64,000 nucleotides of DNA from a virus: IMG/VR virus record IMGVR_UViG_3300029913_000003, positions 64,001-128,000 of that record. One strand, 5' to 3'. Positions 13,786 to 15,355 of this stretch are shown here, piece by piece; position 1 is the stretch's first letter; the number at the start of each line of letters is the position of its first letter. Position numbers and translations under genes: made by a program. The notes beneath the pieces were generated by a model. It was not told the DNA's origin. It made no database searches and saw only the letters and a program-made list of their open reading frames with translations.

Positions 13786-14592
13786 TTAAATTAAATAGTA
13801 ATTACTAAAAACATTTTTGAAAATTTCATAATTATTACCTACTGAGTTTCTATCATTGATAATGGCAAATATAACTTTTTCAAAATATTTAGAATATCCT
13901 TCATTTACTAATAAATGTTTGAACATTTTAGCCATTTCTTCAGGATCATTTTTGAATACTCCACATCCAAATGAACCTAAAATTATAATATCTACATCAT
14001 TTTTAATAGCAAGAGATAGTATTAATCTTATTTTTTCTTTGGTGAGTTCTTCATAATCCCATTTCGTTATTTTTTCAGAATTAATATTAATTGATGATAT
14101 ATTATCTTTTGTAATTGTATCAGAATAATCATTAAAATCAACTTCTACATTATTAAGATTTAATGCTGCAATAGTTACAACATCTGACTCAACTTCATTT
14201 ATATAATTATAATTTACATCTTTGAAAAACACAGCATTCTTTGTATATAACGCTTTATCGTCTCCTAATGGATAGTTATCAGTATTAATAACATGAGTTA
14301 AATTTGAGCATCTAAATAAGCATTCTTCTTGTGCTTTTGATCCTCTTGCAACTCCGCCACCTGGATGTTTATATGATGCCATATTAAGAACGCAAGTTTT
14401 ACCTAATTTACTATATTCTGTAACTGCAGATACACTATCAGAATTTATAACCTGTATATTTTCATAACAAGGAATCCTAATATCTGACATTAATCGTTCG
14501 TCAAATAAATGTAATGTAGTTTCTGAATTTAGCATTTCTGAACTATGTGATTTGGTGTCTTCAAATACATGTATCAATTCTTGATTAGTCAT
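13786..14592 (-). CDS. Poly(ADP-ribose) glycohydrolase-like macrodomain protein (bacterial-type PARG / DUF2263)
   Basis: Exact PARG signature GGG-x7-QEE (HPGGGVARGSKAQEE). Macrodomain-like diphosphate loop ILGSFGCGVFKNDP. Confidence 0.7.
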   Translation of the reverse strand: MTNQELIHVFEDTKSHSSEMLNSETTLHLFDERLMSDIRIPCYENIQVINSDSVSAVTEYSKLGKTCVLNMASYKHPGGGVARGSKAQEECLFRCSNLTHVINTDNYPLGDDKALYTKNAVFFKDVNYNYINEVESDVVTIAALNLNNVEVDFNDYSDTITKDNISSININSEKITKWDYEELTKEKIRLILSLAIKNDVDIIILGSFGCGVFKNDPEEMAKMFKHLLVNEGYSKYFEKVIFAIINDRNSVGNNYEIFKNVFSNYYLI

Positions 14593-15355
14593 TTTCTATA
14601 TTTTTTACTGATTTAAGGCTTAAAACTCTAAAATATTTATCTCCAAAAGTTTTATCTTCTTCTGTAATAACTTCCATTTCGAGAACTTTATTTTTTATTC
14701 TTTTTGATTTACCATTCATTAATGGTAATCCATAATCATAACCAGAATAAGATTGTTGAGAATATTCATTGAATCTGAATTCAAATGAATTGTCTCTATA
14801 ATTTCCTTCACTATTTAAAGAATGATAAAAATTATGTGAAAAAATACCAGAAATTTTATATTTTTCATAAGTTTCTGCAATTATTTTTTTATTATCAAAT
14901 TCTTTTTTTTCATGTTCAATATTTTGATCAAGTAATTCTTTTGATGTAAATAATATATCATTATAAAAATAACAACCTAATTCAATTAATCTATTTTTAA
15001 CTATTTCATAACGTTCACCATAAACACCAGTTTCAAAATACCATATCAAGTAAGATTGATCTTTACATTCACTAATAAGTTGACTTTCATATTTACCAAA
15101 ATGAAAATATTTATCTGGATATTCAAATTTTGGCTCTTTTGACCAACTTTGACTTTTTCCTTTTAATTCTTCATCAATTTTCACGTCAGGGTAAAGTTCT
15201 TTTACTTTATCTAAATCAAAAGAAATATTTTTTATATAATTATAATTCTGTTTAATACCATATTGATATGATTCAGTGTTAATTGTTCTATACAAAGGTT
15301 CTTCTGAATAACTCCAAAGAGTATAAAATTTATTTGCAAATCCAATTAGTTTCAT
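14585..15355 (-). CDS. Hypothetical protein, translationally coupled upstream of PARG-like gene
   Basis: Overlaps the PARG-like gene by 8 nt. Start chosen at MKLIGFANKF (ATG at 15355). Confidence 0.45.
   Translation of the reverse strand: MKLIGFANKFYTLWSYSEEPLYRTINTESYQYGIKQNYNYIKNISFDLDKVKELYPDVKIDEELKGKSQSWSKEPKFEYPDKYFHFGKYESQLISECKDQSYLIWYFETGVYGERYEIVKNRLIELGCYFYNDILFTSKELLDQNIEHEKKEFDNKKIIAETYEKYKISGIFSHNFYHSLNSEGNYRDNSFEFRFNEYSQQSYSGYDYGLPLMNGKSKRIKNKVLEMEVITEEDKTFGDKYFRVLSLKSVKNIEND

What the first reader, a model, noticed from the sequence alone, without database searches (positions are those of the whole stretch)
13786..15355. PARG-like macrodomain enzyme in a two-gene operon, a candidate counter-defence against ADP-ribosylation
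Seen: ORF 13786-14592 carries the diagnostic PARG signature GGG-x7-QEE (GGGVARGSKAQEE) and the diphosphate-binding loop FGCGVFKNDP. Its start overlaps by 8 nt the stop of an upstream 257-aa unknown (14585-15355).

Established: bacterial defences use ADP-ribosylation or ADPR-derived signals (DarT DNA ADP-ribosylation, Thoeris gcADPR). Macrodomain and PARG-like hydrolases reverse or degrade these.

Inference: the pair is an anti-defence module. The partner may be a specificity or sponge subunit.
Basis: partly seen in the sequence, partly recalled or inferred. Interest (0 to 1): 0.65.

Follow-up and report, generated by a model that had tools for sequence, protein, structure and literature searches.

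The report
Huge-phage PARG-type ADP-ribose hydrolase gene
A very large, AT-rich bacteriophage carries an intact bacterial-type poly(ADP-ribose) glycohydrolase gene that probably strips ADP-ribose marks or signals during infection, but such erasers are already known to be common in jumbo phages and the proposed partner gene is only a chance neighbour.

Summary
ORF 13786-14592 (-) is a bacterial-type PARG macrodomain enzyme (PF10021 E 2.6e-19; TIGR02452 E 1.3e-34). Its AlphaFold model best matches the Deinococcus and Thermomonospora PARG crystal structures. GGG-X7-QEE and the GCGVF diphosphate loop are invariant across 26 relatives. Its start overlaps the stop of a 256-aa upstream gene by 8 nt.

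The window is huge-phage DNA (22% GC, gp32-type SSB, homing endonucleases). The identical protein sits on contigs up to 347 kb.

The "two-gene module" reading fails.
- The upstream protein belongs to a large stand-alone phage family (1,116 representative clusters) with a weak ExoX-C-like match and an OB-like C-terminal fold.
- No partner locus outside the close clade has a PARG nearby, and none of 13 distant PARG loci has the partner.
- In close relatives, one to three small genes separate the pair, and one relative has a nonsense codon in the partner.
- The steadier neighbour is the downstream HD gene (4 nt away), the C-terminal half of a CCA-adding enzyme. That linkage is also clade-specific.

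A counter-defence role is plausible but untested. Published PARG-class chemistry points to 2'-O-ribose or phosphate-linked ADP-ribose rather than DarT thymine adducts. This is a new member of a known kind, of modest interest.

The parts
13786..14592 (-). Bacterial-type (DUF2263/TIGR02452) PARG macrodomain hydrolase, 268 aa. It carries GGG-X7-QEE (G78-E90) and the diphosphate loop G209-C-G-V-F213-x-N215-x-P217. A clade-specific insert of about 20 aa lies near residues 147-172.
   Evidence: motif residues invariant in 26 sequences. (AF2 pLDDT 86, pTM 0.88). (Foldseek top hits 5ZDE and 3SIH, E about 3e-14, TM about 0.7). (dN/dS 0.17-0.30).
14585..15355 (-). Upstream 256-aa gene (the 'partner'), a member of a large stand-alone phage protein family of unknown function. 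It has an N-terminal beta-hairpin domain, a weak ExoX-like-C/DUF3820-type helical domain, a long helix and an OB-like C-terminal barrel. It is a neighbour of PARG, not a demonstrated functional partner.
13023..13781 (-). Downstream 252-aa HD-domain phosphohydrolase, equivalent to the C-terminal half of class II CCA-adding tRNA nucleotidyltransferases. It starts 4 nt after the PARG stop and is the most stable neighbour of PARG within this phage clade.
   Evidence: PF01966, E 4.6e-11. (TIGR02692 positions 217-463, E 5e-39). (phrog_2244, tRNA nucleotidyltransferase). (4-nt spacing). (adjacent in all close relatives). (H...HD...H...D residues invariant). (more distant phage homologues lie in 450-500 aa ORFs, the size of full-length CCA enzymes; no PARG near them).
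15356..15507 (.). AT-rich divergent intergenic region between the partner gene (-) and the first gene of the opposite string (15508, +). It is the inferred promoter region for the minus-strand string partner-PARG-HD.
   Evidence: gene layout and sequence. The promoter scan gives no more sites than shuffled sequence, so the promoter is inferred from layout only.

Best explanation
The ORF encodes a stand-alone, catalytically competent bacterial-type PARG (a macrodomain O-glycohydrolase). It is carried as an accessory gene in the host-interaction and nucleic-acid-metabolism part of a huge AT-rich phage genome, and it belongs to a distinct, strongly conserved clade of huge-phage PARGs.

During infection it most likely hydrolyses ADP-ribose attached through the ribose C1''. 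The candidates are the PAR-type 1''-2' ribose-ribose bond (including 2'-O-ADP-ribosylated RNA), ADP-ribose on terminal phosphates of RNA or DNA, and possibly soluble ADPr derivatives. This would undo damage or signals made by host NAD+-dependent toxins and defence enzymes.

It acts on its own. The upstream 256-aa gene is an unrelated, probably nucleic-acid-binding phage protein that happens to lie next to it in this lineage. The downstream HD phosphohydrolase may cooperate with PARG, but that is unproven.

Shown: enzyme family, fold, intact active-site motifs, phage origin, purifying selection, and absence of conserved linkage to the partner. Inferred: substrate class and the counter-defence purpose.
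For: Identity:
- PF10021 E 2.6e-19 and TIGR02452 E 1.3e-34.
- Both catalytic loops align to DrPARG and TcPARG.
- AF2 model pLDDT 86; top Foldseek hits are bacterial PARG crystal structures (E about 3e-14, TM about 0.7), ahead of canonical PARGs and MacroD.
- GGG, QEE and GCGVF-N-P are invariant in 26 relatives with 65% mean column identity.
- dN/dS is 0.17-0.30.

Phage origin and phage-specific clade:
- The window has a gp32-type SSB, GIY-YIG homing endonucleases and Dam.
- The identical protein is on contigs up to 346,561 bp, and an 81%-identical one on contigs up to 711,471 bp.
- Relatives occur in IMG/VR contigs up to 675 kb, in Lak megaphages, in LR756502 (642 kb) and as Bacillus phage G gp114.
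- A motif scan of 185,579 species-representative genomes found only one relative, at 33% identity.

Stand-alone status:
- None of 12 distant phage PARG loci, nor the one bacterial locus, has the partner or the HD gene within about 5 kb.
- Their neighbours are mostly small unknown ORFs.

Substrate class: bacterial-type PARGs hydrolyse PAR, RhsP2-made 2'-OH RNA ADP-ribosylation and 5'-phosphate ADPr ends, and they protect cells from an RNA-targeting ART toxin (PMC11833690).

General precedent:
- 56% of jumbo phages carry a Macro domain, proposed to counter host ADPr derivatives (PMC9503650).
- Phages use orphan NADAR and DarG-like hydrolases against DarTG (titles and abstracts listed).
Against: - No biochemical or genetic data exist for any phage PARG-type enzyme in the library I searched.
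- No conserved neighbour points to a target.
- No ADP-ribosyltransferase, KptA or defence-related gene was detected in the 64-kb window to suggest the opposing activity. The rest of the genome (at least 346 kb) could not be examined.
- The tight PARG-HD spacing, and the parallel with the D. radiodurans PARG operon, leave room for a repair-type role rather than classical counter-defence.
Confidence: 0.6

Rival explanations
1. RNA (tRNA) or DNA end-repair pair. PARG removes ADP-ribose from 2'-OH or terminal phosphates of damaged RNA. The adjacent CCA-enzyme-type HD phosphohydrolase removes 2',3'-cyclic or 3'-phosphates. Together they restore tRNAs or other structured RNAs attacked by host toxins.
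For: - PARG and HD are 4-12 nt apart in every member of the close clade, while other neighbours vary.
- The HD protein is the C-terminal half of CCA-adding enzymes, with metal-binding residues invariant.
- D. radiodurans PARG lies in a ligase-PARG-HD/kinase operon with a proposed RNA/DNA repair role, and bacterial PARGs cleave 5'-phosphate ADPr ends (PMC11833690).
Against: - The linkage is confined to one clade of closely related phages.
- None of 12 distant phage PARG loci has an HD gene of this family nearby, and only one of 79 HD loci has a PARG, that one being from the same clade.
- No ligase, kinase or CCA head domain was found in the window.
- The D. radiodurans HD belongs to a different HD subfamily, so the parallel is at superfamily level only.
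Confidence: 0.17
2. Eraser for the phage's own ADP-ribosylation. The genome encodes an ART or PARP-like writer elsewhere, and PARG limits or times that modification of host or phage targets.
For: - ARTs, including PARP-like ones, are widespread in large phages (PMC9503650; PMC10789625).
- PARP and DUF2263 PARG coexist as working writer-eraser pairs in some bacteria (PMC5966428).
Against: - No ART or PARP was detected in the 64-kb window at E <= 1e-4.
- None turned up among the neighbours of 13 distant PARG loci. displays only 25 of its 43 matched families, so that check is incomplete.
Confidence: 0.12
3. The partner and PARG form a dedicated two-gene anti-defence module in which the 256-aa protein supplies specificity or acts as a sponge.
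For: - An 8-nt start/stop overlap in the window.
- The pair is co-directional and adjacent in several close relatives.
Against: - The partner family has 1,116 representative clusters, almost all stand-alone proteins of 235-280 aa.
- None of the partner loci outside the close clade has a PARG within 6 kb (32 IMG/VR loci and 3 isolated phages by tblastn). A Pfam survey of the neighbours of 30 of them lists no macrodomain or PARG among the 25 of 34 matched families displayed.
- Three small genes are inserted between the pair in L049 and L052. In L008 one small gene is inserted and the partner carries a TAA nonsense codon, while PARG and HD stay intact.
- The partner's fold suggests OB-type nucleic-acid binding rather than a nucleotide sponge.
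Confidence: 0.05

Closest known systems
Bacterial-type PARG (DUF2263 / PF10021 / TIGR02452), e.g. Thermomonospora curvata PARG (PDB 3SIG) and Deinococcus radiodurans DRB0099 (PDB 5ZDA-5ZDG)
   Same: - The same macrodomain fold.
- The same GGG-X6-8-QEE catalytic loop and GCGVF-type diphosphate loop.
- A similar length of about 250-270 aa.
   Different: - Only about 20-24% identity to the solved enzymes.
- It belongs to a tightly conserved clade found on huge-phage contigs and essentially absent from species-representative bacterial genomes at the motif level.
- It carries a clade-specific insert of about 20 aa.
- Whether it has the 'ribose cap' that sets exo- versus endo-cleavage was not determined.
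Phage macrodomain / NADAR 'orphan antitoxin' counter-defence enzymes (T4-like phage NADAR against DarTG1, PMC11825919; chimallivirus DarG2-like macrodomain, PMC13309987)
   Same: Each is a phage-encoded stand-alone ADP-ribose hydrolase without a cognate transferase gene beside it, and the likely purpose is reversal of host ADP-ribosylation.
   Different: - It is a different hydrolase class: PARG-like, not NADAR or ALC1/TARG1-like. There was no PADLOC match to DarG-type models.
- It is expected to cut O-glycosidic or phosphate-linked ADPr rather than base-linked (thymine or guanine) ADPr.
- No experimental link to any defence system exists.
D. radiodurans DRB0100-DRB0099-DRB0098 (ligase - PARG - HD phosphatase/polynucleotide kinase) putative repair operon
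   Same: PARG is followed immediately by an HD-superfamily phosphohydrolase in a co-directional string (PMC11833690).
   Different: - The upstream gene here is not a ligase.
- The HD protein here is a CCA-enzyme C-terminal half without a kinase domain.
- The arrangement is not conserved outside one phage clade.
Bacillus phage G gp114 and Lak megaphage homologues
   Same: They are homologous PARG-type proteins (30-36% identity over 75-94% of the query), embedded in strings of small unknown genes of jumbo or huge phages. Phage G also has a classical Appr-1-p macrodomain (gp122) 3.4 kb away.
   Different: They are more distant in sequence, unannotated and unstudied, and have neither the partner nor the HD gene as neighbour.

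Membership tests
Bacterial-type PARG (PF10021 / DUF2263 / TIGR02452) | Profile score above the curated family cut-off | tested here: met
   PF10021 scores 70.5 bits against a cut-off of 23.5. TIGR02452 scores 120 bits against a cut-off of 50.
Bacterial-type PARG (PF10021 / DUF2263 / TIGR02452) | PARG signature GGG-X6-8-QEE with the catalytic glutamates | tested here: met
   GGGVARGSKAQEE occupies residues 78-90. It aligns to PGGGFLGGAQAQEE of DrPARG. G78-G80, Q88, E89 and E90 are invariant in 26 sequences.
Bacterial-type PARG (PF10021 / DUF2263 / TIGR02452) | Diphosphate-binding loop (G-x-G-V-F-x-N-D/x-P) of the macrodomain | tested here: met
   GSFGCGVFKNDP aligns to GAWGCGVFRNDP of DrPARG. 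G209, C210, G211, V212, F213, N215 and P217 are invariant.
Bacterial-type PARG (PF10021 / DUF2263 / TIGR02452) | Macrodomain fold closest to solved bacterial PARGs | tested here: met
   The AF2 model has pLDDT 86 and pTM 0.88. Foldseek ranks 1-13 are all DrPARG or TcPARG (E 3e-14 to 7e-11, TM 0.63-0.73). Canonical PARGs and MacroD proteins score much worse.
Bacterial-type PARG (PF10021 / DUF2263 / TIGR02452) | Hydrolysis of poly(ADP-ribose) or other O-linked ADP-ribose | not testable with these tools
   This needs an enzyme assay with a wild-type versus E89/E90 mutant comparison.
Bacterial-type PARG (PF10021 / DUF2263 / TIGR02452) | C-terminal 'ribose cap' restricting the enzyme to exo-glycohydrolase action | not tested
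The C-terminal residues D247, N249, S250, V251, N254 and F258 are invariant in the phage clade, but their equivalence to TcPARG R268 or DrPARG T267 was not established.
DarG-type / orphan-antitoxin anti-DarT hydrolases | Homology to the DarG (ALC1/TARG1-like) macrodomain or to NADAR | tested here: not met
   There was no PADLOC match. The Pfam and NCBIfam hits are only to the PARG family. The best structural neighbours are PARG class.
DarG-type / orphan-antitoxin anti-DarT hydrolases | Removal of thymine- or guanine-linked ADP-ribose from ssDNA | not testable with these tools
   The literature reports this activity as non-redundant to TARG1/DarG-type enzymes (PMC8501950), so it is not expected here.
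   No partner locus outside the clade has a PARG within 6 kb. None of 13 distant PARG loci has the partner. The partner family has 1,116 representative clusters.
   L049 and L052 have three small ORFs between the two genes. L008 has one small ORF between them and a GAA-to-TAA nonsense codon in the partner.
D. radiodurans-type ligase-PARG-HD/PNK repair operon | PARG immediately followed by an HD phosphohydrolase | tested here: met
   The gap is 4 nt in the window. The genes are adjacent in all close relatives. The HD subfamily differs (CCA-enzyme type).
D. radiodurans-type ligase-PARG-HD/PNK repair operon | Ligase upstream and a polynucleotide kinase domain downstream | tested here: not met
   The upstream protein has no ligase match or ligase fold. 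The HD protein is 252 aa and matches no kinase family: its only other hit is a weak DUF7446 match below the gathering cut-off.
D. radiodurans-type ligase-PARG-HD/PNK repair operon | Arrangement conserved beyond one lineage | tested here: not met
   None of 12 distant phage PARG loci has the HD gene. Only 1 of 79 HD loci has a PARG, and it belongs to the same clade.

The most novel reading that the evidence does not exclude
The huge-phage PARG clade, together with the tightly linked stand-alone CCA-enzyme-type HD phosphohydrolase, is a phage RNA-rescue device. PARG strips 2'-O- or phosphate-linked ADP-ribose that host ART toxins or defence enzymes place on tRNAs and other structured RNAs, or it cleaves the 1''-2'/1''-3' ribose-ribose bond of Thoeris gcADPR signals. 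The HD enzyme heals the RNA 3' end. This would be the first enzymatic phage counter-measure against RNA ADP-ribosylation or gcADPR signalling.
Probability: 0.12. Interest if true: 0.65.

Novelty: new member of a known kind. Interest (0 to 1): 0.3.

Why it matters
Bacterial-type PARGs were recently shown to be the only hydrolase class tested that reverses 2'-OH RNA ADP-ribosylation, and to protect cells from an RNA-targeting ART toxin (PMC11833690). A conserved, phage-restricted PARG clade suggests that huge phages meet this kind of attack, or related ADP-ribose signals, during infection. It also offers concrete candidates for testing, including gp114 of the culturable Bacillus phage G.

It would extend the list of enzymatic phage counter-defences but would not change the concept. 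Macrodomain erasers are already known to be present in over half of jumbo phages and have been proposed to play this role.

The practical lesson for the scan is that an overlapping start and stop does not by itself show that two genes form a functional module. Comparative context removed the proposed partner.

Tried and rejected
- Megablast of 10 kb around the locus against 50,697 phage records found no match, so no close cultured relative exists.
- PHROGs gave no family for the PARG ORF, and PADLOC gave none for PARG or the partner.
- A PDB profile search with the partner alignment found nothing. BFVD returned only uncharacterised members of the same family. The afdb50 library was not available.
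- The sigma-70 promoter and terminator scan of 11000-15700 gave no more sites than shuffled sequence. The single terminator-like hit is on the wrong strand, so operon boundaries rest on gene spacing only.
- Could the partner be the missing N-terminal (nucleotidyltransferase) half of the split CCA enzyme, or a ligase as in D. radiodurans? Rejected. It has no such Pfam match, and its predicted fold is beta-rich and OB-like.
- Is the close PARG subfamily a recent capture from sequenced bacteria? The motif scan of GTDB representatives found only a 33%-identical relative, in an Anaerovoracaceae contig, next to an ARH-type hydrolase. The scan is motif-based, so it says nothing about more divergent bacterial PARGs.
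- A search for conserved neighbours of distant phage PARGs found only scattered families: R2K ATP-grasp in 2 of 13 loci, and NUDIX and SLOG once each. This is too weak to use.
- Stop-codon recoding as an explanation for the ORF-free stretch 3185-7085 was rejected.
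Full report
**What is at the coordinates**

On the minus strand, three genes follow one another almost without spacing.
- A 256-aa ORF at 14585-15355. Its ATG at 15355 matches the N-termini of its homologues.
- A 268-aa ORF at 13786-14592.
- A 252-aa ORF at 13023-13781.

The stop of the first gene and the start of the second overlap by 8 nt (ATGACTAA). The third gene starts 4 nt after the stop of the second. Upstream lies a 150-bp AT-rich divergent intergenic region. 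Downstream, after gaps of 190 and 167 bp, come a 179-aa repeat-containing ORF and an NAD-dependent epimerase on the same strand. It miscounted the upstream protein by one residue and overlooked the third gene.

**Identity of the middle ORF**

- It matches Pfam PF10021 (microbial-type PARG catalytic domain; E 2.6e-19, 70.5 bits against a cut-off of 23.5) and NCBIfam TIGR02452 (E 1.3e-34, 120 bits against 50).
- A sequence search of the PDB returns only D. radiodurans PARG (5ZDA-5ZDG) and T. curvata PARG (3SIG-3SIJ).
- NMASYKHPGGGVARGSKAQEE aligns to NFASAKNPGGGFLGGAQAQEE, and GSFGCGVFKNDP aligns to GAWGCGVFRNDP.
- An AlphaFold2 model built on 26 relatives (pLDDT 86, pTM 0.88) has the bacterial PARG crystal structures as its 13 best Foldseek matches (E 3e-14 to 7e-11, TM about 0.63-0.73). 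Canonical eukaryotic PARGs and MacroD-type domains score far worse.
- In the family alignment the three glycines, Q88, E89, E90 and the GCGVF-N-P loop are invariant. Mean column identity is 65%.
- dN/dS against three relatives is 0.17-0.30.

The enzyme is therefore very probably active. The window's clade has an extra segment of about 20 aa (about residues 147-172) that is absent from other family members.

**What the genome is**

- The window is 18-28% GC.
- It has about 105 mostly small ORFs, four ankyrin-repeat proteins, several DNA methyltransferases, a non-specific endonuclease, a NUDIX protein (38580-39161), a T4 gp32-type SSB and GIY-YIG homing endonucleases.
- It also has two tRNA-Gln genes.
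- The identical PARG protein occurs on metagenomic contigs up to 346,561 bp, and an 81%-identical one on contigs up to 711,471 bp.
- IMG/VR holds relatives on viral contigs of 330-675 kb.
- tblastn finds more distant homologues in LR756502 (642 kb), the Lak megaphages and Bacillus phage G (gp114).
- A motif-based scan of 185,579 species-representative bacterial and archaeal genomes found only one relative, at 33% identity.

This is therefore a huge-phage gene, belonging to a PARG clade that is largely phage-restricted.

**The proposed partner**

- The 256-aa protein has no Pfam, NCBIfam or PDB sequence match.
- Its family is large. A full HMMER profile search found 1,116 representative clusters (314 at E <= 1e-30). 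Nearly all are stand-alone proteins of 235-280 aa with the same architecture.
- 22 of 38 members weakly match the ExoX-like C-terminal domain PF20600, and 11 match PF12843.
- BFVD returns only uncharacterised phage proteins of the same family.

The comparative context is decisive.
- The homologues in Tenacibaculum and Cellulophaga phages have no PARG beside them.
- None of the 32 IMG/VR partner loci outside the close clade has a PARG or the HD gene within 6 kb.
- The neighbours of 30 such loci are helicases, recombinases, exonucleases, RNA ligases, Mom and similar proteins. No macrodomain or PARG family appears among the 25 of 34 matched families that the search displayed.
- Conversely, none of the distant PARG loci (12 phage, 1 bacterial) has the partner.
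- Inside the close clade the pairing is not stable either. L049 and L052 have three small genes between the two. L008 has one small gene between them, and its partner gene carries a TAA in place of a conserved glutamate codon, while PARG and HD remain intact.

The 8-nt overlap in this window is thus a local accident of gene packing and does not indicate a two-subunit system.

**The downstream HD gene**

- It matches PF01966 and aligns to positions 217-463 of the actinobacterial CCA-adding enzyme model (E 5e-39).
- Its metal-binding histidines and aspartates are invariant.
- Homologues above about 42% identity are stand-alone proteins of about 250 aa on phage contigs. More distant phage homologues lie in ORFs of 450-500 aa, the size of full-length CCA enzymes.
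- It stays immediately next to PARG in every close relative.
- Outside this clade, none of 78 other HD loci has a PARG and no distant PARG locus has this HD.

The published D. radiodurans arrangement (ligase, then PARG, then HD phosphatase/kinase; PMC11833690) is an intriguing parallel. Here, however, there is no ligase and no kinase, and the HD subfamily differs. I keep a repair-pair model as a rival, not as the main explanation.

**Likely mechanism**

PARG-class macrodomains cleave O-glycosidic bonds at C1'' of the distal ribose (PMC10789625). Published work on bacterial-type PARGs shows the following.
- They hydrolyse PAR (PMC8120803, PMC5966428).
- They efficiently remove 5'-phosphate-linked ADP-ribose.
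- They protect E. coli from an RNA-targeting ART toxin (PMC11833690).

Reversal of thymine-linked ADP-ribose is reported as non-redundant to TARG1/DarG-type enzymes (PMC8501950), and this protein shows no similarity to DarG models. DarT is therefore an unlikely target. The ribose-ribose bonds of 1''-2' and 1''-3' gcADPR are chemically similar to the PAR bond, but I found no paper linking PARG to gcADPR.

A systematic survey already reported Macro domains in 56% of jumbo phages. It proposed that these domains mainly counter soluble ADPr derivatives and are expressed early or packaged in the virion (PMC9503650). Orphan NADAR and DarG-like hydrolases are listed as proven phage counter-defences. 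I found no study of a phage PARG-type enzyme.

My best explanation is a stand-alone ADP-ribose O-glycohydrolase that erases host-imposed ADP-ribose adducts, most plausibly on RNA or nucleic-acid ends, or ADPr-derived molecules. The enzyme identity is near-certain. The biological purpose is moderately likely and untested.

**Verdict**

- The enzyme call is right, and the counter-defence idea is reasonable but not new as a concept.
- The module or partner idea is not supported.

It is a new member of a known kind, a huge-phage clade of bacterial-type PARG, and of modest interest. Its main value is as a candidate for testing phage reversal of RNA ADP-ribosylation.

**Limits**

- Only 64 kb of a genome of at least 346 kb could be examined.
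- The context windows were about 5-6 kb on each side.
- The collection scans are motif-seeded.
- The two Pfam neighbour surveys display only 25 of the 34 and 43 matched families.
- The structures are predictions.

Noticed in passing
window 6569-6990 (+), within the ORF-free stretch 3185-7085: There is a full-length match to the GOLLD RNA family (RF02032; 278.9 bits, E 1.6e-78). It lies inside a 3.9-kb stretch that has no ORF of 70 aa or more in any frame, even with TAG or TGA recoded, and that has slightly raised GC. The remaining 3.4 kb (3185-6568) matches no Rfam family at E <= 0.1 and is unexplained. It could hold the variable 5' half of GOLLD or further large non-coding RNAs.
   Followed up: partly
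window 13023-13781 (-); loci L061-L066, L072: The HD protein is a stand-alone C-terminal half of a CCA-adding tRNA nucleotidyltransferase. Stand-alone versions of about 250 aa form a well-populated family on large phage contigs, whereas more distant phage homologues sit in ORFs of 450-500 aa, the size of full-length enzymes. No N-terminal nucleotidyltransferase half was found in the window.
   Followed up: partly
locus L008 5038-5805 (76%-identical relative): The partner gene carries an in-frame TAA replacing a conserved Glu codon (DKVK*LYPNV against DKVKELYPDV), while the adjacent PARG and HD genes are intact. This is either a pseudogene or an assembly error.
   Followed up: yes
window 15702-16624 (+) and 18288-18500 (+): There are five paralogous small ORFs (69-84 aa) beginning MKYLCKK or MRYLCKK and ending in a basic ...RK(L/M)KLKKL... 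tail. Four are in tandem, and one lies beyond the Eco57I-like N6 methyltransferase gene (16679-18124, -). One copy was scanned and has no Pfam match. Equivalent small genes occur in relatives.
   Followed up: no
window 12293-12832 (-): A 179-aa ORF whose C-terminal half consists of four tandem copies of a roughly 17-aa unit ending in (T/N)KLSLL, three of them followed by TP. It has no Pfam or PADLOC match.
   Followed up: no
window, whole: The window encodes four ankyrin-repeat proteins, an LRR/LRRNT protein, and VWA and PKD domain proteins, which is unusual content for a phage. It also encodes three DNA methyltransferases of different types and a NUDIX protein at 38580-39161 (-). TAG is a rare stop codon (4 of 105 ORFs, against TAA 74 and TGA 27).
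   Followed up: partly
locus L139 (Bacillus phage G, JN638751.1 66154-66984 and 70350-70829): The culturable jumbo phage G encodes an unannotated PARG-type protein (gp114) and, 3.4 kb downstream, a classical Appr-1-p macrodomain (gp122). This gives an experimental handle on phage PARG function.
   Followed up: partly
locus L046 (Anaerovoracaceae contig CAVGIZ010000191.1) 412-1071 and 2646-3503: This was the only hit in the species-representative genomes. It is a 33%-identical PARG lying 1.5 kb from an ARH-type ADP-ribosylglycohydrolase (PF03747, E 2.6e-54), that is, two unrelated ADPr erasers clustered together.
   Followed up: partly
loci L049/L052 4256-4989 and L008 5807-5995: Small genes (62-89 aa; the first shares the motif ...EEQYYEYKCYKNDKYTHTV...) are present between the partner and PARG in some relatives and absent in the window. 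This shows indel turnover of tiny ORFs at the junction.
   Followed up: yes
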